Source: an uncultured Acidimicrobiia bacterium
GTDB lineage: Bacteria; Acidobacteriota; Terriglobia; Versatilivoradales; Versatilivoraceae
Reading direction: 5' to 3'
Assembly (NCBI GenBank): GCA_963786955.1
Contig: CAWBAT010000005.1
Span: 1,695,375-1,759,374 of the forward strand
Length of the DNA: 64,000 nucleotides
Shown: positions 831-50,011 of the stretch, one piece after another
Numbering within the stretch: the first letter of the stretch is position 1
How the letters are laid out: every line of letters starts with the position of its first letter
Notes under the pieces: model-generated
Database searches by the model: none
What the model was told of the DNA's origin: nothing
The model's input: only the letters and a program-made list of their open reading frames with translations
Program-made: the position numbers and the translations under genes

Positions 831-2487
831 TCATCCCAAATCCAAAGTCAATCGTGTTACCGAAGCAGCTGGAAATCGATAGATTAATGTTTTTCCCCTA
901 CTCTGGATCACGCTCTCTTTGGGCTCTACAGCGCGGGGATTATCGAAGCTGTTGTAAGCGTGAATATCACTGGCCGTCAATGTTGTGCCCCGGCCCGACA
1001 AAACCGATGCAGAACGGATCGCGATCTCTGCTTCCCGTTCCTGGTTTGTGTCCGGGTTGACGACGGTCAGCACCAGCCGTTTCTGTTGAATTGATGCTGA
1101 CCCGGCCAATCCCCCAAAAGAGGCCGGCTTGCCCAGACGGGTGTAACTTACCTGAGGGCCGGAAAAGAGCGTGCGAACCGCCTGGTTTCCTTGATGGGCC
1201 GCATACATATCGAAGACATGGTAATTGGGTGTCAGAAGGAATCGTTCCTCATGAGCCGCGAACAGCGAATGCAGGCAGTTGATCAGTTGAGCCACATTGG
1301 CCATGGCAACCTTATCGGCATGGCGTATGAACGTGTCTAACGTTAAGGCCGCGAGCAGTGCATCACGCAGTGTCGACGTCTGGCCATACAGATGAGTGGG
1401 ATCTGCCTCACTGCCGGATTTATGCCAGGCACCCCATTCGTCCACGACCAATTTGACACGATGCTGGTGATCAATCTCGCCCATAATAGACCAGTGTTTC
1501 ATGATGAGAGTTTCCATTTGATCGGCCTCACGCAGCAGTTCGTACCAGTCTTCGACGGAAAATTTGATCGCATCCCCTTTACTGGCGACCCAGTCGGTAT
1601 TCTGCCCTTTGCCGACATTCCAGGAATAGTGGTGCATTGCCCACCCGTACAGATTGTTAATTTGATCTTTTCCTTTTTCGGTCAGTTTGAGAAAAAAACG
1701 ACGGGTCCATTCTGTATCGCCACCATTGGGCCCCGCTCCAATGATGGAGAGATCCACACCGTATCGTGGGATCCAGGCTGTAAAGCGGCGAAATTCCGTG
1801 GCGTACTCCTCAGGCGTGAAATTTCCACCACAGCCCCAGGGTTCATTCCCGATTCCCCAATAACGAACCCCAAAAGGGTTCGAAGTGCGCCTCCTTTCGC
1901 TCGCAGTTCAGAAAGAGTCGTGCTACCGGCAGGGGAATTACAGTATTCCACCCACTCGTCGAAATCTCTGGGGGTCAGACTTCGGACGTTGGCTGCCAGG
2001 TAAGGTTGCGCGCCGACCTGCCTGCAAAAACGGATAAATTCGTTTGTGCCAAACATGTTTGGATCGTATCTTTGGGGTCCAGACAATATCTTTCGGGAAG
2101 ATTGGGATCATCAGTCCAGAAGTTAGTGCGACGCGGACGTTGATTGCGTGGCCCCACGCCATCATGCCAGTTATAGCTGTCGGCAAAACATCCACCCGGC
2201 CAACGAATGACTCCTGGCTTTAGACGGCGTAAGGCGTCTACTAGTTCCTTGCGTATCCCTTCATAATTCGGAATCTTGGAATTCTCCCCGACCCACACTC
2301 CATCGTAGACCACTCCTCCGAGGTGTTCCACGAAATGTCCGAACAGATCCGGTGATACCGCTGCGACCGGTTCTCCCGCCAGAATCTCGATTCTGGAGTC
2401 GGTTGCCCGTAATGATCGGGGTCCAAACAAGACAGCACTTCCAATGACTACGTTTTTGACAAATGATCTGCGCTTCATTGTTGACAT
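831..2487 (-). CDS. Alpha-L-arabinofuranosidase, GH51, Tat signal (split over three ORFs by frameshifts)
   Basis: KRRSF Tat-like motif; FGHFVEHLG, RWPGGCFAD, FGTNEF, VVDEWGAWH, MANVAQLINCL GH51 motifs in ORFs 1975-2532, 1682-2086, 831-1757. Confidence 0.9.
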
Positions 2488-2612
2488 GTTTCGCCTCACG
2501 CCAAATCGCAGACATACAGAAACATCGGCCAACTCCTGATCCGTCCTTTGAGCGTCTGCCCCACGGGTCGGTAGAAATCACCAAAAAATTCCACTACGTC
2601 GGGGATAAAACT

Positions 2613-4652
2613 TTAAAACTGCTTCAATAGTGGAAAGACTGTGATCCGCAATTTCGCCGATCCATAGGGAATCAGAGTAAGAATCTCAACCGGTTCCAGG
2701 CTACTCGCAGGGCTCTGCGGGAGCAGTCCTGCGGACCCATTGACTTCTGCCCATTCCATGATTCGGCGTCCCTTCAGGCGTAATTGAATAGGTGCCCCTT
2801 CGGACGTGAATGGGGATAACCCGACTGGCTTTAGGTTCGTTTCAATAGAGTCTTCTGGATGATCGACGTCCAGAATTAACCCGTAATTCCACGGTGTGGT
2901 GGGATGAACTTCCCAATCTTTGGCCGGAACCGAAGCAGGTCTGCGCATACCTTTTTCAATCTTCCGCCAGTCTTCGCCTACCTTCAAAGAGAAGACCAGC
3001 GGCCCCTTTTCAACTGCTATCGAATCCCTGTACCAGCGGGAAGTTCTCGCGTGCAGTGGGAATTCTAAGACGACCTTGTCACCCTTGTTCCACTGCCGAT
3101 CAATCCTATGGAATGAACCAGGCTTGAGACCTTGCAACGGTTTCCCATTCAGAAAGACCTTTGGTTCTGAAACCCATTCGGGGATTCGTAAAGATAGCGG
3201 GAAATTCACAGGCTTTGCGGGTGTGAGCCCCAGATGGATAGTCCCGCGAAATGGATAATCGGTCTCTTCGATGATGTGAAGGCGTACGCCATCCTTTACG
3301 ATGGTATTCACTTCACAGGGGCCGTAGCTCACGGCTGCCACTCCGTCGTCCGGCGTGGCCATCCAGAGGCTGGCTAAAAACTTAGGCCAGCCTTGGTGCA
3401 TATTGGCTGTACAGCAACCGAAGTTGGGCTCGAGACCGAAAACATTGGCTTCCGGCCCATTGGTTGTCCAGTCTCGCTGCCGGATATCGCAACGGATTTG
3501 ATTGGGCTGTTGATCATATTGATGTGCCCACATGTCGCCTGAAAAAGTTGCCGGCATTGCGTTGAAGGCAATTCTCTCGAGACGGTCTCCCAACCTAGGA
3601 TCTCCTAGGAGGCCAATCAGGTGCTCCAGAGAAAACATGGATTCCACGACGCTGCAAAGCTCGTTGCCCTGTGTAGGATTAGGCCCGGCGTAGTGTTCAT
3701 CGGCACTGTGCATGCCGTGTGGAAGTAGATGATAACTGTCCAATTCCCCCAACATGCGGTAGATAGCCTCTCGATCGGAGGATTCATGTGAGACCAGCCA
3801 CCAGACCGCAGCGGTCTTCATGGCCATGGCATTGTTCACTCCGTGGGCTCGCAGAGCCAGGTCCGTCAAGCCGCCGCCGGGTCTCAGCCCAAGTTGCTCG
3901 TTACTCGTTTTGGCTACGAATTCAAAATGTTCGAACTGTTTCTTCCAGTCATACCCCTGGTCATGCAACTGTCTTGCCAGGCCAAGGAGTTGTTTGTTGC
4001 CGGTGCGGTTGTATAGCCAGAGGACGCTTAGAAGTTCATCCGCCCAGCGATAGACAGCCCACTCCTTCAAGGGGTGTTGTTGAAGCTGATTCGTTTGATA
4101 GAAGAAATATCGTTCCATTAAGGGGATGACCCTTGGATCACCCGTTGCTTCCTGATATTGCGTGAGCACCTTAAGCATGATCATGTTGGGCCACCAGTCT
4201 TGATTCTTCTCAGGACCTATAGATCCGTCAGGCCTCTGGTGGGTTAACGTCCAATTCACCCACTTATTCGCTTTGGCAATCAGCTTTGGGTCATCGAGAA
4301 GATAAGCCAAAGGCACAAGCCCATCCATGTAATACGGGCCTCGTTCCCAACTTTCACCTGTTCCTCCCAACCAGCCGTTGTCTTCCATGAGGTCAGGCCA
4401 GAACTCGTCCAAATGGCCTGTGAGCCCGGAGGCTTGGGTTTCCAGTTGGTGCCGGAGCCAGCCTCTGGGCTTCACTGAAGTCAAGGGTAATAAATAAAAA
4501 GTGGCGCCTGCCAATTCAGGCCGGTTTCTCACAACGTGCAATCGTGCTGGCACAGGAACAGTTTCCGCACTTCTCCCGTATCCGTTTTGCAGTGAAACAG
4601 CTGTGGCATTGGCGAGAAAACAAATAGCCAGAAGTTGAGCTTTTATTTTCAT
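2613..4652 (-). CDS. Beta-L-arabinofuranosidase-like glycoside hydrolase (GH127/GH146 family), secreted
   Basis: Signal peptide; GWLRHQL, WERGPY, HGVNNA, ELCSVVE, GCCTANMHQGWPK (Zn-Cys motif), ETDYPF, GPLVFSL. Confidence 0.85.
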   Translation of the reverse strand: MKIKAQLLAICFLANATAVSLQNGYGRSAETVPVPARLHVVRNRPELAGATFYLLPLTSVKPRGWLRHQLETQASGLTGHLDEFWPDLMEDNGWLGGTGESWERGPYYMDGLVPLAYLLDDPKLIAKANKWVNWTLTHQRPDGSIGPEKNQDWWPNMIMLKVLTQYQEATGDPRVIPLMERYFFYQTNQLQQHPLKEWAVYRWADELLSVLWLYNRTGNKQLLGLARQLHDQGYDWKKQFEHFEFVAKTSNEQLGLRPGGGLTDLALRAHGVNNAMAMKTAAVWWLVSHESSDREAIYRMLGELDSYHLLPHGMHSADEHYAGPNPTQGNELCSVVESMFSLEHLIGLLGDPRLGDRLERIAFNAMPATFSGDMWAHQYDQQPNQIRCDIRQRDWTTNGPEANVFGLEPNFGCCTANMHQGWPKFLASLWMATPDDGVAAVSYGPCEVNTIVKDGVRLHIIEETDYPFRGTIHLGLTPAKPVNFPLSLRIPEWVSEPKVFLNGKPLQGLKPGSFHRIDRQWNKGDKVVLEFPLHARTSRWYRDSIAVEKGPLVFSLKVGEDWRKIEKGMRRPASVPAKDWEVHPTTPWNYGLILDVDHPEDSIETNLKPVGLSPFTSEGAPIQLRLKGRRIMEWAEVNGSAGLLPQSPASSLEPVEILTLIPYGSAKLRITVFPLLKQF

Positions 4653-22084: not shown

Positions 22085-23840
22085 TCAGTACGGGTTTGCG
22101 GGCATCATTTCCCAGGCCTTCACGGTCTTGAAGTGCGCGATGCCGCCGCTGGCGAACAGGCTGACTCCCAGGCTGTCGCTCCGTACCGGATAAACGCGGC
22201 GGCTGATGGCTTGGCGGTCGTTGGCAAAGACCTCCACGACCGACTTGTCCACGAAGACCCGCAGCTTCAGCGGCTCGCCTGGCTTCAAGGCAAACGGGGC
22301 GCGCTCGACCACCTTTGCGGCCTTCCTTGCCGCTGCGGGTGGAGTCGAAGACCAGTTCCTTCTTGTCCGCGTCGTAATAGAGGAGCGTTTCTTCCTCGCC
22401 GCTGGGTGAGGCCCGGACTTTCAGGCCGCAGCGTTGGGCGGCGCCGACTTCGATTTCGATCGCCAGTTCACAGGCATCCCCCGCCACGCCTTCGAGCGCT
22501 TTGGTTTCGCCATCGGCCAACGCCAGATCGCTCCACGATTTCTCGTGGCAGCGGAGGGTTTCGAGTTCCTTCACCGGCTGGCAGGCGCAAGGTGCCATCC
22601 TCGCCCAGCCAGAGCGAGCGGGGCAGTCCATAGACGCCCGACCAGCCTTTCTCCTTTTCGCCGGACGGGTTGTCGAGCAGCCACGCCCACATGATCTGTC
22701 GGCCCTGCCCGTCCATCAAGGCCTCCGGGGCGAAGTAGGTGTTGTCCACCCACGTCATGCGTCCGTGGTTGTTCGGGGTGAACCGGTCGTTCCGGTAGTC
22801 GCCCGACATAGTATTGGCAGCCTTTGTTGTGGCTGATGAACAAGCAGCAGATGCTTCCCGCTCGGCGGCCCGCCGGCAGGGCTCGAAGGCAGCGGCAGAA
22901 AACTGGGGCACATGTTGTCTTCGCTGCGGTCGGTCCACTCCGGGTTCCGTTCGTAGAAGACGTGGAGGTATTTCCAGTCTTTCAAGTCGTCCGAGACGAA
23001 GAGGTAAAGCCGATCGCCCTTGTTCTGAGAGCGGCGCATCGGGGGCGCGGCCAATTTTGTTCAGCACGAGCAGATTGCCGGTGAGCATGTAGTAGCGGCC
23101 GTCTTTCTTCCAGATGTTCGACGGGTCGGCGGAGCCGTAGAGGAAGGATTTCCCGCTCGGGTCCTTGACCTCCGTGATTCCCCACTCGGTGGATTTGATG
23201 ACCGGATTGGCATCCAGCTTAGTCCAGGAATCGAAATCGGGGCCGAGGCTCTTGGCCAGCCCGATGCCTTTGGCGCCCCAGAGCATCCAGTAGGACAGAT
23301 ACGCGGTGCCGTCGTCGTCCACAAACGCGCCGCCGCTGAAGCAGCCTTCGTCCCCATTGCCCGGGCCCGATCGCGTCGGGATGATGCCGCCAGTGAACCA
23401 GGTCGCCGCTGGAGATGTGGCCCCAGCAGAAACCCGATCCGTTGCGGTTGTAGAGATACATCAAGTGATAGCGTCCGTTGTGGTAGAACGCGCCGTTCGG
23501 GTCGCCGGGCATGCCCATGTCCTCCGGCACGCAGAAATGGTAAGTCGGACGATAGGGATCGGCGAGGAACCGCTCGCGCAGCAACCGCGCCGAGCGAACC
23601 GCTTCATCGGGAACGGGGCTGGTGAAGCGACCAAGTCTTCGGAATGGGATTGGACTTCCCTTCGTCGCCGCCCGAATCAATCGTCAACACGCTGCTACCT
23701 TGTTGGGTTAGGTTCGCGAGTGCGAACCAAGCAACGAGCGGTTTGTCTTTGAGCTGGACTGGTTCCGCTCCAGGCGCGACGAGAGCGATTACAAAAGCCA
23801 GCAAGGTGATGACAATTGTTTTCATGGTGCGGGTATTCAT
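22085..23840 (-). pseudogene. GH32 beta-fructofuranosidase/levanase-like gene, heavily frameshifted and probably internally deleted
   Basis: RPTYHF..GDPNG, WGHISSGDLVHW, ADP, MCP, FAPE, WAW, WSG..LPR, LRVFVDKSVVEVF distributed over several frames. Confidence 0.8.
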
Positions 23841-23994
23841 TTTATGGATCGGTGCTGCGCGATAAATGGCAATACTAAGTCTCATTCAAACGGTTGTGAA
23901 AGGCCGGGTGAGGGGCCAGCTCGATTTAATATATCCATTTGATTGCAACTTAGTAGTACTTTTCATAAATACGATGACGTATTTTAGGATAGGC

Positions 23995-24104: not shown

Positions 24105-24205
24105 AAGATTGATCGGAATCAGAAAATTCAGAAAATCTCGACTTGGGATGCCGATCAGCCTCTCGCAACGCGAGTTCGCTTGGGGCGAGCGGGAGGGAAT
24201 TCCGA
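24105..24205 (-). mobile_element. Integrase-core transposase remnant
   Basis: Translates as SPQANSRCERLIG..RDFLNFLIPIN, resembling the P-x-x-N-x-x-x-ER motif of rve integrase cores. Confidence 0.55.
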
Positions 24206-24255
24206 GGTTCCGAGTTAGTCTGGACGTCCCGCAGCAACCGCATCGCCAATTGCTC

Positions 24256-24579
24256 TTACCCTTTCTCGGCAAAAGCTGCGTCCACACTCCGAAGCTCGTC
24301 TTCGCCCTGGGGTCGCCAGGCGCCGCCCAGCCTTCGCAACGCTTCATGCAATTCCGGAATGGCTTGGTTCGCGAGGTTTTTTCGCAGCTTCACCCACTCT
24401 TCCCGGGTCTTTTTAACCTCCTCGATGTTCCCGTCACGACAAAAGGCCCTCGCCGCACTGGCCGCCGATCCATACTCATCTTGAAAATCCTCATGCAGAT
24501 AGGCGGAGAAAAAATCCCGCAGCCATGGATATTCGGCGACCGAAAATACCACTGCTTTTTTCCCTTTATCTCGCTTCAA
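24256..24579 (-). CDS. CdiI-like immunity protein
   Basis: YPWLRDFFSAYLHEDF resembles the F-x-x-Y-x-H-(Q/E)-D motif of CdiI proteins paired with RNase A-like toxins; TTG start overlaps the toxin stop (TTGA 24576-24579). Confidence 0.75.
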   Translation of the reverse strand: MKRDKGKKAVVFSVAEYPWLRDFFSAYLHEDFQDEYGSAASAARAFCRDGNIEEVKKTREEWVKLRKNLANQAIPELHEALRRLGGAWRPQGEDELRSVDAAFAEKG

Positions 24580-25118
24580 TTGCGTGCCTCCGGATACGTC
24601 GTCAGCACATGAAAATTCTCCACTCCGTCCGCCTTCAACACGATCACTGCTTGCGTGCACGGCGATGACTGCGACTCTCCGTGCCTCATACTCCGGCCGA
24701 TCACCCGACCCGCATTGAAATGCAGAGCAAGATTCGAGCGCGGATAACCCCGTCGTTCCCAGCTCTCAATCTTTCCTCGGTTGATTCGCAATGCTTCCCC
24801 CACGGTTTCTTCCGCAGTATCCCGATCCGTCCATGTCGAAGCCGCAGCAATGTTCAGCTCTCTTTGAAGCCGCTCTCGAAGCGCTTCATCGGTCTGACCC
24901 ACGTGCTTCTTCAGCGTGTGCCCACCTCGATCCTCATCCGCTGAAAGGTCGTAGCGCCCACTCCTTGGTGGGCTTTTCGCAATGGTTCCTGCTTCGCTTT
25001 GCGGCATTGCCTGCTGCATCCGCGGTTCATGGCTTTCTCCTCCGCACCCAGCAATCCACAATACCCAACCGCAGAAAGAAATCACTTGCAGCCATCTGAT
25101 CAATTGCCCCGATTTCAT
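24576..25118 (-). CDS. Lipoprotein carrying a bacterial RNase A-like (CdiA-CT type) toxin domain
   Basis: Lipobox IAG-C25; DL..DE..GGHTLKKHVG..L..R, AST(W)TD..AE, IGR, C-terminal VLTTYP. Confidence 0.85.
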   Translation of the reverse strand: MKSGQLIRWLQVISFCGWVLWIAGCGGESHEPRMQQAMPQSEAGTIAKSPPRSGRYDLSADEDRGGHTLKKHVGQTDEALRERLQRELNIAAASTWTDRDTAEETVGEALRINRGKIESWERRGYPRSNLALHFNAGRVIGRSMRHGESQSSPCTQAVIVLKADGVENFHVLTTYPEARN

Positions 25119-25389
25119 TATTATTCCATTTCATCCCTTAACGAGCGTGACCATCGAACAGAATACTTTCTTCTGTGGAATCTGTCGAAATGCATGCCAG
25201 AAACGCCATTGCTTTAGACAGCGATCTTAGCCGACGCTGAAGTTTTCCAACAGACGAGACTATTCCCCCACTTGCCTTCCCACTCTTTTCCTTTGATTGA
25301 GCCCCTCCTCAACAATGGTTATTCCTTCTTCGCTGCTTCCCACCTCCACTAGTCTTCAAGACAGGTCGCCATCATTCATCCATCCCGCA

Positions 25390-28300
25390 TCAGTAGTAAA
25401 TCTTCAGCCCAAACTGAATGTTGCGCGCCCCCTGGGAGGAATAAATCTTGCCCAGACCTGATCCCAGCCCCGTGGAGGGTGCAGTGAAAATAGGGGTGTT
25501 CGTGAGATTGATAAACTCGGTTCGAAACTCAACTCGTCTCTTATCGCCGATCGGAAATATTTTTTGAAGGCTTAGGTCAAGGGTGCGGAGGCCGGGGCCA
25601 CGCACCGTCCCCACGCCGCAGCTCCCAAAAGTCCCCGTTGCCGGTGCGCCATAGGGAGAAGGATCAAACCACTGGAGCCCCCCATCCGGAGCATTTTGGC
25701 TGGAACCGAAGACCTGGGCGGGGCTATCGCAATTGGCCCGCGGACTCCGTGAGCCGGTTCCAGAGGCGTCGCCGGCCCCTATTGTGAGCGGGAAACCGCC
25801 CCGCAATTGCAGAATGTCACCCAGTTGCCAGTTACCTACCACTCCGTTAACCACAGGGTTCCAATGGTTGCCGAACTTCTTGCCGCGTCCGAAGGGCAGT
25901 TCGTAAACGGCATAGCTGGTGAGCACGTGCGTGACGTCGTAGTAGCAGGGCCCCCATTCCGCTCGCCTGTCGTAAAGGTTTTGCCAGTAGGAACCTTGCG
26001 AGGCGGACTGGCCCCCTGCGCCAAAGTACCCAATCGAGTCGCTCATGCATTTCGAGTAGGTGTAGGCCACATTGAATTGCAGGCCCTGGCTGAACCGCTT
26101 CTGCAGGTTGGCTTGCAGGGCGTCGTAGAGCATGTTCCCGTTCGATTCGGTCCCGGAGATTTGCGAGACGCTCTGCAGCGCCGGATTGCCCGAGAGGTAA
26201 GGGCTGGGGGCGGTAATTGGCGTGCCGCCGGCATCCACACCGAGCAATTGCCTCTGAAAGTAAGGCATCGGCACCATGAGGTGAGTTCCATGCTGCCCGA
26301 CATAGCCCACCGTGAGAACCAGGTTGCTCCAAAACTGATGCTCGATCGTAAAGTTCCATTGCTGAGCGATTGCTGGCCGGATATTCGGATCCCACAGGCG
26401 AATATCCGCGTTCTGATACGGGTCCGTCGGGGAGGCCAGAACCGTCATCCCCTGGTCCAGGGTGGAACCCGGGAAAGTCAGGTTGTCGTAGAAGCTGTTC
26501 AAGTCACCGGCAAACGGGGGATTCAAGGGAAGGCGCAGGCCGGTCCCGGTCCCCTCCAGGTAAGAGGAAACCGTGTAGGCTCCGCGGAAGACCGTCTTCT
26601 TTCCCAGTGCCCCCGGCGTATAGGCAAACCCGAAGCGCGGCTGGAAATTCCCCAGCCCCCAGTTGTAGGAGTTGTAGAGGGCACGATTGTTACTATAGAA
26701 AGTACTCTCACCCGGCACTTCAACCTTGCCGCTGAAAGGTGCGAAGTTCACCTGCCGGTCCCGGACTTCCACCCAGGGCGTATAAGTTTGATAGCGGAGG
26801 CCGAGGTTCAGGGTCAGGGAGTCGGTGACTCGCCATTCATCTTGAAGATAAGCGCCAAAGACATTGGAACGCTGTCCCCAGGTGCCCCCATTGCTGCCGC
26901 GTCCCAAAAAGTCGGGAAGCCCCAGCAAGAAGTCAGCTTCAGGGGCCCCGGAGCCTCCAAAAGGTTGGGCAAGGGTGTCGGGGCCTGCCGTCCACCTTCC
27001 GAGGAAGAAGATGGCTCCCGAAACACCCCAATTACCAGGATAAAACGTGTTGATCCGCTGTCGCCAATACTGGAATCCGGTATGCAGGATATGCCGGCCC
27101 CGGGTAATGACCATGCCGTCTGTTAACTGGATGACCGTATCCGCGAAGAGTGCCTGCTTGGGGGTAGACGGGCTTCCAATGGGCCACGTGGGACTCGCGA
27201 AGGCGAGGAGCATGAGTCCAGGGCCGCGATCATTGCCATCCTGGATCCCGAGCTGTTCGGCAAAGTTGCCCACACCGTCTTTGTGGTCTCCATTGAAAAA
27301 CCAGACGTAATTGACGCCCACCCTGACTTCGTTCACAAAGTGCGGGTTCACCGTTCGCGTCCAGTTGACAACACCGTTGCGGGTACGGGCCGACTGTAGC
27401 ATGTCGAAGACCAGCGGAAATGAGTTGCTCGTTGGAATATTCTGGCGGCTCCAGGAGAAGCGCCCAAAAAAATGGTCTTTTTGAGTCAAGTTCCAATCCA
27501 GCTTGATGTCGAACTGGTCCCCGTTAATCGCACTTCGGGTCGTGTTGAGATAGTTATTCGTAAGCTGGCCATTACTCGGCAACGGGTACAAGGACGAAGC
27601 GAACAGATTCCGGGCCACCGGATTGATCCTGTCCATGGGGATCTGATTATTCGCAAAAGGGGCGCGTACCATCTGTCCCGGGTTGGCTGGATCCGGAATG
27701 TAGTGATTAGGATCAGGGTCGTACAACTGGATGCCCGACTCTGTCAGTAATTGTGAGAAGTCTCCTCGCCGTTCGGGTTCGGTAAAAACCGTCATCGGGC
27801 CGGTCGAGGCCGGGAAGTCATAACGCTGCCCCTGGTAGTCGCCAAAGAAAAACAGCTTGTCTTTCTTGATGGGACCGCCAATCGTGCCGCCGAACATGTT
27901 CCACCGCATCTTGGACCTTTGGCCCCCGGACCAGTTGGAGGCCCAGTCGTTGGCATTCAAGACGTCATTGCGGAAGAATTCAAAGAGGGTGCCTTGGAAC
28001 CGGTTGGTCCCCGACTTGATCGTGGCACTGATTATCCCTCCCTGCGCGTTCCCGAATTCAGCAGGAGCGTTGTTGGTGATCATGTTGAACTCTTCAATTG
28101 CGTCGATGCTCGGAGTGTATCCAACCTGGTTGTCAGACACCTGGTTGTTGTCGAGACCATCCAGTAGAAAATTATTAGCCTGCTCCCGGTTTCCGTTCAC
28201 ATAAGGCCTGCCCGAACCAAAGCCATTAGTTCCGTTGGTGAACGCCGAAGGATCAGGATGAACTGTGCCGGGCACCAGCAGAGTCAACTGGATATAGTTC

Positions 28301-28793
28301 CGTGTGGCCAGCGGCAGGGCCTCGTTGATATTCGATTCAATGACCGCCCCCAATTGAATCGTGTCCGTGTTCAGCAACGGCACCCCTCCCTGCACTTGAA
28401 TGGTTTGATTGAACGTACCCAGGTGCATCTGAAAGTCCAACCGGGCCGTCTGGTTGAGCACCAGCCCCAAGAGAGGATAGACCGCCGTTTGAAATCCCGT
28501 TATTTCCACCCTGACTTCATAGCTGCCAACCGGGACTCGCGGCAGGTTGTAAAATCCCTCCGCATTGGTTTCTGCTGTCCAGACCGTGCCGCGCGCAATA
28601 TCTTTGGCCTCAACCTTTGCCCCTGCGATAGGGGTATCCGAGGGGTCCGTGACCTTCCCCTGATAGCCGCAGTCACTTGCTGGCCCCAGGCCGGTTCACG
28701 AGCGGCCAGGCAAATGGCGATGAAGACAAGAGTCAGAACCATACCGGTTAGGCTCACTCCTTCATCTTTCCTGGATCCGGGATGCATGTTCAT
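25390..28793 (-). CDS. TonB-dependent receptor with carboxypeptidase-regulatory-like N-terminus (frameshifts near 28500-28660)
   Basis: LPLATRNYIQL, NFLLDGLDN, KSGTNRFQG..EFFRNDVLNA, QDEWRVTDSLTLNLGLRY, C-terminal RNIQFGLKIYY. Confidence 0.93.
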
Positions 28794-48807: not shown

Positions 48808-48889
48808 TATTTGCCGCATAGGTTGCGTAGATTAAACTTGTCGATGCGGAGAATAGGGTCTATATTATCCGCATAATGTGCGGAGAATG
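48808..48889. promoter_or_regulatory. Array of five TGCGGAGAATA-like half-sites upstream of the Fic gene
   Basis: Half-sites at 48808, 48824, 48845, 48863, 48879; two palindromes with 5-bp spacers. Confidence 0.65.
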
Positions 48890-50011
48890 AGCATGTACAT
48901 ACATCAGCAGTCCGATTGGCCGAAACTTCACTGGAATAGCGAGGTGCTCACCGGCCTGTTGGCAGACGTGCGCCACCGGCAGGGCCGCCTGCTGGGACAA
49001 ATGGAGGCGCTGGGGTTCCGGTTGCGGGAAGAGGCGGTGCTGCGGACGCTGACCGAGGACGTGGTCAAATCGAGCGAAATAGAAGGGCAGGAACTGGACC
49101 GGGGAGCAGTCCGTTCCTCGATTGCGCTTCGCCTGGGAATGGATGTTGGCGGCCTGAAGCCTACCGACCGCAACGTGGAAGGCGTCGTCGAGATGATGCT
49201 CGATGCGACGCGGAACTATGACAAGCCTCTGACGGAAGAGCGGCTGTTCGGCTGGCACGCAAGCCTATTTCCGACAGGGCGCAGTGGAATGCGGCGGATC
49301 AAAGTCAGCGCATGGCGGAATGACAGCCACGGCCCGATGCAGGTGGTGTCCGGCCCGGTCGGCAGCGAGAGGGTTCATTTCGAAGGACCGACGGCCACGC
49401 GGCTTGAGCGAGAAATGACGGGCTTTCTGGACTGGTTTAATGGCGGACCTGAAGTCGATCTTGTTCTCAAGGCGGGCATCGCGCATCTGTGGTTCGTGAC
49501 AATTCATCCGTTTGATGACGGCAATGGGCGCATGGCGCGTGCGATTGCCGATCTGTGCCTGGCCCGCTCGGAACGAAGTTCGCAGCGCTTCTACAGCATG
49601 TCGGCGCAGATCAGGCAGGAGCGTAATGCCTATTACGATACGCTGGAACAAACGCAAAAGGGCGAGACAGATATAACCCGGTGGCTGAGATGGTTTCTGG
49701 AGTGTCTGGGCAGTGCGATCGATGGCGCTGAATCACTGCTGGGAAGCGTGCTGGCGAAGGCGCGCTTTTGGGAAGGACTCGGCGAGACGCCGGTAAACGA
49801 TCGGCAACGGCTGATCCTTAATAAGCTGCTTGACGGCCTCGAGGGTAAGCTAACGTCGTCGAAGTGGGCGAAGCTGACGAAGTCGTCGCAGGACACAGCG
49901 CAGCGCGACATCGCAGACCTCATTCAACGCGGAATTCTTGCGCGCAGTGCGGAAGGGGGCCGGAGCACGAGCTACACCCTGGCGCGCCCCGTGGGCGCTG
50001 CCTTATCCTGA
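48887..50011 (+). CDS. Fic family protein (DUF4172 N-terminus, C-terminal winged HTH)
   Basis: YIHQ..DWP, SSEIEG, HPFDDGNGRMAR, DTA.RDI..L..GGRSTSY. Confidence 0.95.
   Translation: MSMYIHQQSDWPKLHWNSEVLTGLLADVRHRQGRLLGQMEALGFRLREEAVLRTLTEDVVKSSEIEGQELDRGAVRSSIALRLGMDVGGLKPTDRNVEGVVEMMLDATRNYDKPLTEERLFGWHASLFPTGRSGMRRIKVSAWRNDSHGPMQVVSGPVGSERVHFEGPTATRLEREMTGFLDWFNGGPEVDLVLKAGIAHLWFVTIHPFDDGNGRMARAIADLCLARSERSSQRFYSMSAQIRQERNAYYDTLEQTQKGETDITRWLRWFLECLGSAIDGAESLLGSVLAKARFWEGLGETPVNDRQRLILNKLLDGLEGKLTSSKWAKLTKSSQDTAQRDIADLIQRGILARSAEGGRSTSYTLARPVGAALS

What the first reader, a model, noticed from the sequence alone, without database searches (positions are those of the whole stretch)
24256..25118. 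Stand-alone lipoprotein RNase A-like toxin with cognate CdiI-like immunity gene and no CDI/T6SS carrier
Seen: a 180-aa protein made of a lipoprotein signal (IAG-C), a short linker and a domain with GGH..HVG-x8-R and terminal T-x-Y-P. It overlaps (TTGA) a 107-aa gene with FFSAYLHEDF. Established: the Yersinia kristensenii CdiA-CT RNase A-fold toxin uses His, an Arg 11 residues later, and Thr-x-Tyr; the same spacing is present here. Such domains normally tip large CdiA/Rhs proteins. No cdiB, haemagglutinin repeats or Rhs core lies nearby. Inference: a minimal membrane-anchored toxin delivered by contact, vesicles or outer-membrane exchange (analogous to myxobacterial SitA lipoprotein toxins), or a surface RNase with a cytoplasmic inhibitor (barnase/barstar-like logic).
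Basis: partly seen in the sequence, partly recalled or inferred. Interest (0 to 1): 0.8.

Follow-up and report, generated by a model that had tools for sequence, protein, structure and literature searches.

The report
Lipid-anchored RNase with its own inhibitor
Two overlapping genes encode a small exported, lipid-anchored ribonuclease of the bacterial RNase A-like type and the cytoplasmic protein that blocks it; the pair belongs to a large, uniform and untested family in soil Acidobacteria, and a similar lipoprotein form was already noted in Bacillus.

Summary
Window 24576-25118 (-) encodes a 180-aa protein. It has a signal peptide with lipobox IAG-C25, a ~30-aa disordered linker and a C-terminal PF18431 RNase A-like domain (E 6e-28). 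H72, R83, T173 and Y175 align with the four mutagenised residues of Y. kristensenii CdiA-CT. The 107-aa gene that overlaps it (TTGA) is a PF18593 CdiI_2 homologue of that toxin's immunity protein.

It is not a truncated cdiA. No CDI, T6SS or Rhs gene was found among 45 window ORFs.

It is also not an oddity. 146 of the 150 nearest cluster representatives are under 300 aa. Of the 80 best genome loci, mostly Acidobacteriota, 77 have a lipobox by my pattern and 78 have the inhibitor gene directly downstream.

Batot et al. 2017 described lipoprotein RNase A-like proteins with probable immunity genes in the Bacillus cereus group and proposed nucleotide scavenging. NCBI names that form "RNase A-like domain-containing lipoprotein".

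The short tether has no entry domain, the RNase domain is constant, and the predicted interface is conserved. I therefore favour an envelope or extracellular RNase with a cytoplasmic inhibitor (barnase/barstar logic, about 0.55) over a carrier-free interbacterial toxin (about 0.2). Novelty: new member of a known kind.

The parts
24576..25118 (-). Gene for the 180-aa lipoprotein RNase (P0001), stop codon included
   Evidence: ORF listing and translation. PF18431 E 6.1e-28. 5e3e_B E 1.4e-11. AlphaFold2 model mean pLDDT 89.8, best fold match 5e3e_D at E 8.8e-10, TM 0.88 on the target, rmsd 2.1 A.
25044..25118 (-). Signal peptide (residues 1-24) and lipobox Cys25 (I-A-G-C)
   Evidence: Read from the sequence: K2 and R8, then a hydrophobic stretch, then IAGC. 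The model shows a helix at 3-23. A lipobox pattern is found in 110 of 121 close relatives and 77 of 80 genome loci. No SignalP-type predictor was available.
24951..25043 (-). Linker, residues 26-56, predicted disordered
   Evidence: pLDDT is 64-70 with no secondary structure at 24-57. The distance from Cys to GGH has a median of 38 aa, range 35-122, in 77 loci. Twelve of the 17 listed nonsynonymous differences to a 96%-identical metagenome variant fall in residues 1-63.
24579..24950 (-). RNase A-like domain, residues 57-180, with H72 (24903-24905), R83 (24870-24872), T173 (24600-24602) and Y175 (24594-24596)
   Evidence: Alignment to 5e3e_B. Residue roles come from Batot 2017. pLDDT is 96-98. 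R83 is invariant in 115 aligned relatives; those rows were pre-filtered on the His and T-x-Y-P motifs, so only R83 is an unbiased invariant.
24256..24579 (-). Gene for the 107-aa CdiI_2-type inhibitor (P0002), TTG start, no signal peptide
   Evidence: PF18593 E 1.5e-8. A profile of 12 downstream proteins hits 5e3e_A (CdiI) at E 1.2e-6, and 12 of 12 match PF18593. The same start geometry (start one base before the RNase stop) is seen in 60 of 80 genome loci.
24576..24579 (-). TTGA overlap of the inhibitor start and the RNase stop (translational coupling inferred)
   Evidence: Sequence. The geometry recurs in relatives.
25119..25389 (-). Upstream intergenic region of 271 bases, with one sigma-70-like site at 25188-25160; tentative
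   Evidence: One search found 1 promoter-like site, while shuffles give a mean of 1.3, so this is no better than chance. The gene upstream on the same strand is an unrelated OMP_b-brl_4 barrel protein.

Best explanation
This is a self-contained two-gene module.

Gene 1 makes a pre-lipoprotein. It is exported by Sec, lipidated on Cys25 by Lgt and cleaved by LspA. The result is a 124-residue RNase A-fold ribonuclease held on a flexible tether of about 30 residues, outside the cytoplasm. It sits on the outer membrane or cell surface, or possibly on shed vesicles.

The enzyme probably cleaves RNA by the metal-independent His/Arg/Thr-Tyr chemistry of Y. kristensenii CdiA-CT.

Gene 2 is translationally coupled to gene 1 through the TTGA overlap. 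It makes a cytoplasmic CdiI_2 protein that caps the active site of any RNase that folds before export.

The likely role is degradation of extracellular or envelope RNA, for nucleotide or phosphate scavenging or related extracellular RNA turnover. This is the logic of barnase/barstar, and it is the role Batot et al. proposed for the Bacillus lipoprotein RNases. It is not strain-discriminating contact killing.

Shown here: the homology of both proteins, the conserved catalytic residues, the fold, the lipobox, the gene overlap, the conserved pairing, and the absence of a carrier.

Inferred: export and lipidation, location, RNase activity, inhibition, and the physiological role.
For: Identity of the parts: PF18431 E 6e-28 and PF18593 E 1.5e-8; 5e3e_B E 1.4e-11 with the catalytic residues aligned; the inhibitor profile hits 5e3e_A at E 1.2e-6; best fold match 5e3e_D with TM 0.88.

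Complex prediction: ipSAE 0.92 (median of three runs) against a best of 3 controls of 0.13. That mark was reached by 58 of 80 solved complexes and 2 of 110 mismatched pairs. The runs share at least 96% of their contacts and the partner's pLDDT is at least 86. The interface includes RNase H67, H72, T173 and Y175 and inhibitor residues 25-35. A like complex (5E3E) is solved, so this pass shows likeness and may come from memory.

Lipoprotein pathway: Lgt, LspA and two LolA-family genes are in the genome. The residue after the Cys is Gly in 56 of 77 loci and Asp in 1.

A stereotyped family rather than a polymorphic toxin:
- 353 clusters of near length.
- Of 150 nearest representatives, 146 are under 300 aa.
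- Of the 80 best of 219 genome loci, 77 have a lipobox by my pattern and the other 3 a variant, 78 have the inhibitor gene directly downstream (2 loci end at a contig edge), and none has a second inhibitor copy within 2 kb.

No entry domain: the tether has a median of 38 aa, against the ~375-aa escort domain of SitA.

Interface conservation: predicted interface positions are more conserved than the rest on both proteins. Mean column entropy is 0.38 against 1.06 for the RNase and 1.11 against 1.69 for the inhibitor, over 79 pairs.

No delivery system: no TssC hit in the genome, no CDI/T6SS/Rhs among 45 window ORFs, and heterogeneous metabolic neighbours at 11 other loci.

No local hypervariability: a metagenome strain variant differs by 44 of 1059 bases across the pair, against 4 of 103 and 2 of 164 bases in the flanks.

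Precedent: Batot 2017 discussion.
Against: - The only studied homologous pair is a true interbacterial toxin and immunity pair.
- Distribution is patchy. The stand-alone pair occurs in 12 of 401 sampled genomes of the phylum, 1 of 2 other genomes of the genus, and 0 of 22 other genomes of the family. This pattern is typical of accessory and often competitive genes.
- The pair sits in different neighbourhoods in different genomes.
- One genome (G178) keeps the inhibitor gene next to a 45-aa remnant of the RNase. Selection for immunity against incoming toxin would produce exactly this.
- The inhibitor diverges faster than the RNase: mean pairwise identity 48% against 70% in 79 pairs, and 30% against 51% in 12 pairs.
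- No nucleotidase, phosphatase or nucleoside-uptake gene recurs beside the pair.
- If the anchor faces the periplasm, the substrate is unclear.
- Conservation of the RNase side of the interface is expected anyway, because that face is the active site.
- Nothing here measures activity, location or expression. One 162-base contig of an RNA library covers 24439-24574, but DNA carry-over cannot be excluded.
Confidence: 0.55

Rival explanations
1. Carrier-free interbacterial toxin. The lipoprotein RNase reaches neighbouring bacteria through outer-membrane vesicles, membrane exchange or contact. It enters their cytoplasm by an unknown route and kills cells that lack the inhibitor.
For: Both proteins are homologous to a proven CDI toxin and immunity pair. 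Distribution is patchy and the pair sits in varied contexts. G178 has an orphan inhibitor beside an RNase remnant. The inhibitor evolves faster than the RNase. Lipoprotein nuclease toxins have a precedent in SitA. In the same phylum the domain also occurs on longer non-lipoprotein proteins, one of them followed by two tandem CdiI_2 genes (G199).
Against: There is no entry or receptor-binding domain, only a tether with a median of 38 aa, while SitA entry depends on a ~375-aa escort domain. The constant part is the toxin and the variable part is the leader, which is the reverse of polymorphic toxins. There is a single copy per genome and no inhibitor arrays. Inhibitor-only genomes number 1 strong and 1 weak hit of 401. 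The predicted interface is conserved on both sides. No delivery genes recur nearby.
Confidence: 0.2
2. Effector against eukaryotes (protist or nematode grazers, or fungi), released on vesicles. The inhibitor serves only for self-protection. The analogy is the signal-peptide RNase A-fold protein Ribocin of P. aeruginosa, which cleaves eukaryotic ribosomes.
For: Ribocin is a small exported RNase A-fold protein that needs equivalent His, Thr and Tyr residues, and its delivery is independent of the known secretion systems (PMC13189344, passages read). The family studied here is concentrated in soil and sediment bacteria (record titles). A conserved interface and a constant domain fit a non-bacterial target.
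Against: Ribocin is very distant from CdiA-CT Ykris (15% identity by that paper), and no inhibitor partner appeared in the passages I read. Nothing in these loci points to eukaryote interaction.
Confidence: 0.1
3. Remnant of a larger polymorphic toxin: a truncated cdiA or rhs 3' end, or an orphan toxin/immunity cassette that is not expressed on its own.
For: PF18431 was defined on a CdiA C-terminus. Orphan CT/immunity cassettes are known in CDI and Rhs loci (established knowledge, recalled).
Against: The protein has its own ATG four codons after an in-frame stop, and its own signal peptide and lipobox. There is no VENN motif. The same full architecture occurs in 77-80 of 80 genome loci. The upstream gene is an unrelated barrel protein, after 271 bases of spacer.
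Confidence: 0.02
4. Intracellular toxin-antitoxin or anti-phage module, in which the RNase acts inside the producer when export or the inhibitor fails.
For: Two small overlapping genes with an RNase and an inhibitor resemble type II TA organisation.
Against: A signal peptide and lipobox conserved across the family argue for a function outside the cytoplasm. There is no PADLOC match, no match in 50,697 phage records, and no defence-island neighbours.
Confidence: 0.03

Closest known systems
Lipoprotein RNase A-like proteins of the Bacillus cereus group (Batot et al. 2017 discussion; NCBI name 'RNase A-like domain-containing lipoprotein', NCBIfam NF041883)
   Same: The architecture is the same: signal peptide with lipobox, a linker of about 30-35 aa, a PF18431 domain ending T-x-Y-P, and a small gene directly downstream. 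I checked this on a B. thuringiensis plasmid copy: 172 aa, LSG-C lipobox, PF18431 E 2e-28. Batot et al. argue for nucleotide scavenging and against competition.
   Different: Only 23.9% identity by tblastn. The NF041883 score is 53.7 bits against a cut-off of 200. The host here is a diderm, so the location may be the outer membrane or cell surface. The downstream Bacillus gene has no detectable CdiI_2 match, whereas here it is clearly CdiI_2.
CdiA-CT/CdiI of Yersinia kristensenii ATCC 33638 (PDB 5E3E)
   Same: Both partners are homologous. The catalytic His, Arg, Thr and Tyr are kept. The fold matches with TM 0.88. The predicted inhibitor position is over the active site, as described for 5E3E.
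   Different: That toxin is the tip of a very large CdiA exported by CdiB, and it sits behind a cytoplasm-entry domain. Here the domain is a 180-aa Sec/lipoprotein precursor with no carrier and no entry domain.
Barnase/barstar and related secreted RNases with intracellular inhibitors
   Same: It works alike: a Sec-exported small RNase plus a cytoplasmic protein that blocks its active site to protect the producer (established knowledge, recalled).
   Different: The folds of enzyme and inhibitor are unrelated. Barnase is released rather than lipid-anchored. This is a likeness in how it works and does not make it a family member.
SitA lipoprotein toxins of myxobacteria (outer membrane exchange)
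   Same: N-terminal lipobox followed by a disordered stretch, a C-terminal nuclease, and an adjacent cytoplasmic immunity gene.
   Different: SitA has a conserved escort domain of about 375 aa that sets the entry route, polymorphic toxin domains, several copies per genome, and depends on TraAB. None of these is seen here.
Ribocin (RbcN) of Pseudomonas aeruginosa
   Same: A small stand-alone exported RNase A-fold protein with essential His, Thr and Tyr.
   Different: It has a signal peptide, and no lipoprotein was mentioned in the text searched. It targets eukaryotic ribosomes and is very distant in sequence. No inhibitor partner was seen in the passages I read.

Membership tests
Pfam PF18431 RNAse_A_bac (bacterial RNase A-like domain) | Profile score above the gathering cut-off over the whole domain | tested here: met
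   98.4 bits against 27, profile positions 1-113 of 113, residues 66-176.
Pfam PF18431 RNAse_A_bac (bacterial RNase A-like domain) | RNase A-type fold as in 5E3E | tested here: met
   AlphaFold2 model with domain pLDDT 96-98. Foldseek best matches 5e3e_D and 5e3e_B at E about 1e-9, TM 0.87-0.88, rmsd 2.1-2.2 A.
Pfam PF18431 RNAse_A_bac (bacterial RNase A-like domain) | Residues equivalent to His175, Arg186, Thr276 and Tyr278 | tested here: met
   H72, R83, T173 and Y175 in the phmmer alignment. Roles from PMC5435912.
Pfam PF18431 RNAse_A_bac (bacterial RNase A-like domain) | Ribonuclease activity | not testable with these tools
   Needs an enzyme assay.
Pfam PF18593 CdiI_2 (immunity protein of the Y. 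kristensenii type) | Profile score above the cut-off; homology to 5e3e_A | tested here: met
   35.7 bits against 26.7. The profile of 12 orthologues hits 5e3e_A at E 1.2e-6. 12 of 12 match PF18593. P0002 alone did not reach 5e3e_A.
Pfam PF18593 CdiI_2 (immunity protein of the Y. kristensenii type) | Binds over the active site of its RNase | tested here: inconclusive
   Prediction only: ipSAE 0.92 against a best of 3 controls of 0.13. The mark was reached by 58 of 80 solved complexes and 2 of 110 mismatched pairs. The interface covers H67, H72, T173 and Y175. A like complex is solved, so the pass may come from memory.
Bacterial lipoprotein (Sec/SPII) | Positively charged n-region, hydrophobic h-region, lipobox [LVI][ASTVI][GAS]C | tested here: met
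   K2 and R8, residues 9-21 hydrophobic, I-A-G-C25. The pattern is kept in 110 of 121 close relatives and 77 of 80 loci. No SignalP-type predictor was run.
Bacterial lipoprotein (Sec/SPII) | Lgt and LspA encoded by the host; lipidation shown | tested here: inconclusive
   Lgt and LspA genes are present and adjacent, and LolA-family genes are present. Lipidation itself cannot be tested here.
NCBIfam NF041883 RNase_A_lipo (exception-type model) | Score at or above the curated 200 bits | tested here: not met
   53.7 bits, E 2.4e-14, aligned to model positions 51-167 of 168. The architecture is the same but the clade is different.
Contact-dependent inhibition (CdiB/CdiA/CdiI) | Toxin is the C-terminus of a large CdiA with a TPS domain, repeats and a VENN-type boundary; cdiB is adjacent | tested here: not met
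   The protein is 180 aa with its own signal peptide and has no VENN motif. The neighbours are unrelated. PF05860 and PF03865 gave no hit in the genome, but their control genomes gave no hit either, so those two searches say nothing.
SitA-type outer-membrane-exchange toxins | Conserved N-terminal escort domain of about 375 aa, with polymorphic C-terminal toxins | tested here: not met
   The distance from Cys to the domain has a median of 38 aa, and the domain is constant across the family. The definition comes from PMC8546572. TraAB was not searched for.
T6SS or Rhs effector | Link to T6SS genes, PAAR/VgrG/Hcp or an Rhs core | tested here: not met
   No TssC (PF05943) hit in the 93%-complete genome, while the E. 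coli control was hit. RHS repeats occur only more than 300 kb away. None was found at 11 related loci.

The most novel reading that the evidence does not exclude
The Acidobacteriota family could be a widespread, carrier-free class of lipoprotein RNase toxins. At least 219 species-level genomes and hundreds of metagenome clusters carry it. The toxins would be passed between soil bacteria on outer-membrane vesicles or by lipoprotein transfer, entering targets without any dedicated translocation domain. The orphan inhibitor gene beside an RNase remnant in G178 would then be a trace of selection for immunity.
Probability: 0.2. Interest if true: 0.7.

Novelty: new member of a known kind. Interest (0 to 1): 0.35.

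Why it matters
The finding places a large, uniform and experimentally untouched family of exported RNase A-fold enzymes, each with a dedicated inhibitor, in a dominant soil phylum.

If the enzyme reading holds, it adds a candidate player in extracellular RNA turnover and phosphorus or nucleotide scavenging by Acidobacteria. It would also show a CDI-type toxin and immunity pair living as an ordinary enzyme and inhibitor pair.

If the toxin reading holds, it would be a delivery mode with no known carrier.

Either way, the pair is small and easy to test, and it is a natural diderm counterpart to the Bacillus lipoprotein RNases noted in 2017.

Tried and rejected
I made a closer 19-row alignment and reran it.
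- P0002 alone found no relative in the PDB. Only the profile did.
- The promoter and terminator scan gave nothing above chance.
- Rfam found no RNA family in the window.
- PADLOC gave no match, and the phage records gave no match.
- PF05860 and PF03865 searches of the genome are uninformative, because the control genomes gave no hit either.
- Synteny with the two other genomes of the genus could not be used. The flanking barrel protein has only 33-35% identical relatives there.
- I took the 137- and 154-aa genes upstream of the longer RNase A-like proteins in G199 and G289 for Hcp-like by eye. Pfam gave no match, so I drop that label.
- My first motif-based parse of the 80 loci missed 25 of them. 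I replaced it with an HMM-based parse. The 'linker' numbers are wrong and are not used.
- Sequencing runs: all 20 holders have small shares (0.17 or less) of the sampled words, so I name no habitat from them.
- The RNA-library run covers only 24439-24574 and 25266-25300. Parts without cover say nothing.
- Zhang et al. 2012 (PMC3482391, passages on lipobox and lipoprotein read) and Mushegian 2020 (PMC7297114, passages read) do not describe this lipoprotein form.
- Full-text searches for 'PF18431' (1 paper), for 'Acidobacteri' + 'RNase A' + 'lipoprotein' + 'toxin' (3 papers, none on this family by title and abstract) and for 'RNase A-like' + 'lipoprotein' + 'immunity protein' (2 papers) found no description of the Acidobacteriota family in that library.
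- Supplements are closed. The homologue lists of Batot 2017 and of the Ribocin paper could hold relevant entries that I did not see.
Full report
**Observation**

The minus strand of window 24256-25118 holds two overlapping ORFs.

The first, 24576-25118, gives 180 aa. It begins MKSGQLIRWLQVISFCGWVLWIAG-C25: a positively charged start, a hydrophobic stretch and the lipobox I-A-G-C. It carries GGH at 65-67, H72-V-G, R83 eleven residues after H72, and T173-T-Y175-P176 near the end.

The second starts at the TTG of the string TTGA that also holds the first gene's TGA stop. It gives 107 aa with FFSAYLHEDF at residues 23-32 and has no hydrophobic N-terminus.

**Identity of the two proteins**

- Pfam places residues 66-176 of the first protein in PF18431 (bacterial CdiA-CT RNase A domain): 98.4 bits against a cut-off of 27, E 6.1e-28. 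It places the second protein in PF18593 CdiI_2: 35.7 bits against 26.7, E 1.5e-8.
- Against the PDB, the first protein finds only 5e3e_B, the Y. kristensenii CdiA-CT, at E 1.4e-11. The alignment puts H72, R83, T173 and Y175 on chain positions 8, 19, 109 and 111.
- Batot et al. 2017 (PMC5435912; abstract and passages read) show by mutagenesis that His175, Arg186, Thr276 and Tyr278 contribute to activity. The spacing (+11, then T-x-Y) identifies these with the aligned positions.
- The second protein alone finds nothing meaningful in the PDB. A profile of it plus eleven orthologues from other genomes (alignment A1) hits 5e3e_A, the cognate CdiI, at E 1.2e-6. All 12 members match PF18593.
- An AlphaFold2 model built on 115 relatives has mean pLDDT 89.8. 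It shows a helix at 3-23 (the signal peptide), an unstructured stretch at 24-57 (pLDDT 64-70) and a domain at pLDDT 96-98. Its best structural matches are 5e3e_D and 5e3e_B: E about 1e-9, TM 0.87-0.88 on the target, rmsd 2.1-2.2 A.

**Predicted complex**

I folded the RNase domain (residues 55-180) with the second protein. The ipSAE was 0.92 (median of three runs) against 0.13 for the best of 3 controls. That mark was reached by 58 of 80 solved complexes and 2 of 110 mismatched pairs. The runs agree in at least 96% of their contacts and the partner's pLDDT is at least 86.

The interface contains RNase H67, H72, T173 and Y175 and inhibitor residues 25-35, which include the conserved YLHEDF motif. 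A like complex (5E3E) has been solved. The pass therefore shows likeness and may come from memory. It does not show that this copy binds.

**No carrier, and not a fragment**

- The RNase ORF has its own ATG four codons after an in-frame stop.
- Upstream lie 271 bases of spacer and then the stop of an unrelated OMP_b-brl_4 barrel gene. Downstream lies a frameshifted GH32 gene.
- I scanned 45 larger window ORFs with Pfam. They are glycoside hydrolases, redox enzymes, an SNF2 helicase, a kinase, a sigma-54 activator and the like. None is a CDI, T6SS or Rhs part.
- In the whole genome (93% complete) there is one PF18431 copy and no TssC hit. RHS repeats occur only more than 300 kb away.
- The TPS and ShlB searches are uninformative, because their control genomes gave no hit.
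- Lgt and LspA are present and adjacent, and two LolA-family genes are present.

**The family**

The word-indexed search found 353 clusters of near length (99-315 aa searched). The best 120 are almost all 172-190 aa. Of these plus the query (121 rows):
- 110 match a lipobox pattern in the first 60 residues.
- 117 have a Cys after a hydrophobic stretch.
- 118 end with T-x-[YF]-P.
- 112 have GH-x4-H-x-G-x8-R.

The exhaustive search of cluster representatives found 1423 proteins at E 0.001 or better and 403 at E 1e-10 or better. Of the best 150, only 4 exceed 300 aa, and the median is 192 aa. A crude classification gave 52 with a lipobox, 86 with only a hydrophobic N-terminus and 12 with neither; most of the 12 are fragments.

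A pattern scan of one genome per GTDB species found 219 loci. The 80 best are mostly titled Acidobacteriota (Acidoferrales, Acidiferrum, Acidipila, Sulfotelmatobacter, Terriglobales). A few MAGs carry labels of other phyla. In these 80 loci:
- 77 have a lipobox by my pattern, and the other 3 have a variant (DGGC, ANGC, GQGC).
- 78 have a CdiI_2-type gene directly downstream. The other 2 loci end at a contig edge.
- 60 have the inhibitor's first start one base before the RNase stop.
- The distance from Cys to GGH has a median of 38 aa, range 35-122.
- The residue after the Cys is Gly in 56 of 77 and Asp in 1.
- No locus has a second inhibitor copy within 2 kb.

**Distribution**

In an even sample of 401 genomes of the phylum, 15 have PF18431 and 16 match the inhibitor profile. 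Fourteen genomes have both, side by side.

- Twelve of the 15 are the short exported form. Ten of these have a lipobox Cys and two have only a hydrophobic N-terminus.
- Two (G199, G289) are 369- and 270-aa proteins without a lipobox, each preceded by a conserved small gene with no Pfam match. G289's N-terminal part weakly matches DUF4225. G199 has two tandem CdiI_2 genes.
- One (G077) is a 527-aa protein with a divergent domain.
- One genome (G178) has a strong inhibitor hit but no RNase hit. A 45-aa remnant ending FYVLTSYPE lies between coaA and the intact inhibitor gene.

Among close kin, the pair is in 1 of 2 other genomes of the genus and 0 of 22 other genomes of the family. In the genus mate it lies between a MerR/VWA pair and a hydrolase, a different neighbourhood.

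Neighbours at 11 loci are varied metabolic genes. No partner recurs, and there is no secretion, phage or transposase gene.

**Enzyme or weapon?**

Several findings argue against a polymorphic, strain-discriminating toxin:
- The constant part is the RNase domain and the variable part is the leader.
- The tether is too short to hold an entry domain. SitA lipoprotein toxins depend on a ~375-aa escort domain for entry (PMC8546572, abstract and passages read).
- There is one copy per genome and there are no inhibitor arrays.
- Positions in the predicted interface are more conserved than the rest on both proteins. Mean column entropy is 0.38 against 1.06 for the RNase and 1.11 against 1.69 for the inhibitor, over 79 pairs. 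The RNase side overlaps the active site, so only the inhibitor side is informative.
- A strain variant in sediment metagenomes differs by 44 of 1059 bases across the pair, against 4 of 103 and 2 of 164 bases in the flanks. The pair is therefore not locally hypervariable.
- Of the 39 listed in-gene differences, 10 are synonymous and 17 nonsynonymous in the RNase gene, and 12 of those 17 fall in residues 1-63. The inhibitor gene has 5 synonymous and 7 nonsynonymous. Nine further differences were not listed.

Other findings favour a weapon:
- The only studied homologues are a weapon.
- The distribution is patchy.
- G178 keeps an orphan inhibitor.
- The inhibitor diverges faster than the RNase: 48% against 70% mean pairwise identity in 79 pairs, and 30% against 51% in 12 pairs.
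- No scavenging partner genes were seen.

I therefore commit to an exported, lipid-anchored RNase with a translationally coupled cytoplasmic inhibitor, at about 0.55. A carrier-free interbacterial toxin stands at about 0.2 and an anti-eukaryote effector of the Ribocin kind (PMC13189344, passages read) at about 0.1. The fragment and toxin-antitoxin or defence readings are unlikely.

**Comparison with what is known**

Batot et al. [quoted passage not shown] They argue that the lipid anchor and the low variation between isolates point to nucleotide scavenging.

NCBIfam NF041883 is named 'RNase A-like domain-containing lipoprotein'. The window's protein scores 53.7 bits against its cut-off of 200, so it is not a member of that narrow model.

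A B. thuringiensis plasmid copy bearing that name has the same build: 172 aa, LSG-C lipobox, a linker of about 33 aa, and PF18431 at E 2e-28. It is 23.9% identical by tblastn, and its downstream 90-aa gene has no CdiI_2 match.

The window's pair is therefore a new, diderm, CdiI_2-linked clade of a kind already described. Searches of the paper library found no description of the Acidobacteriota family. Supplements were closed.

**Verdict**

Novelty is a new member of a known kind. Interest is modest at 0.35. It would be higher if the carrier-free toxin reading (probability about 0.2) proved true.

Noticed in passing
window 22085-23885 (-): A GH32 glycoside hydrolase gene is split over at least four ORF pieces (22085-22312, 22468-23322, 23219-23680, 23604-23885), with N- and C-terminal GH32 domains in different frames. 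It is either a pseudogene or the result of indel errors in the assembly.
   Followed up: partly
L034 (G178:C12), about 1340-1790: An intact CdiI_2-type gene sits directly after coaA. It is preceded by a 45-aa remnant of the RNase C-terminus that ends FYVLTSYPE. This is the one clear inhibitor-only genome among the 401 sampled.
   Followed up: partly
L013 (G199) 301-2680 and L004 (G289) 1115-2781: The same phylum also has longer RNase A-like proteins (369 and 270 aa) without a lipobox. Each has a hydrophobic N-terminal region (weak DUF4225 match in G289) and follows a conserved 137- or 154-aa gene with no Pfam match. G199 carries two tandem CdiI_2 genes. This looks like a classical effector locus with an unidentified delivery route.
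   Followed up: partly
L015 (G077) 1103-3060: A 527-aa protein has a divergent partial PF18431 match at its C-terminus (E 2.6e-7) and a CdiI_2 gene overlapping its end. Its N-terminal 430 aa have no Pfam match.
   Followed up: no
window 24203-24241: Contigs of two sediment metagenome runs carry a ~96% identical variant of the pair, but they run on with unlike sequence in the 40 bases just downstream of the inhibitor gene's stop. This looks like a small replacement in the 3' flank.
   Followed up: no
L128 (B. thuringiensis plasmid NZ_CP151869.1) 2975-3247: The 90-aa gene after the Bacillus 'RNase A-like domain-containing lipoprotein' has no CdiI_2 match and no other Pfam match. The Bacillus lipoprotein RNases may use an unrelated inhibitor.
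   Followed up: partly
window 48878-50011 (+): A Fic/DOC family protein with an N-terminal DUF4172 domain stands among carbohydrate and 2-oxoacid dehydrogenase genes.
   Followed up: no
window 25390-28509 (-) and genomes G401, G402: The OMP_b-brl_4 barrel protein next to the pair belongs to a very large paralogous set: 31 and 40 matches in the two other genomes of the genus, none above 35% identity. Its position beside the pair is likely coincidental.
   Followed up: partly
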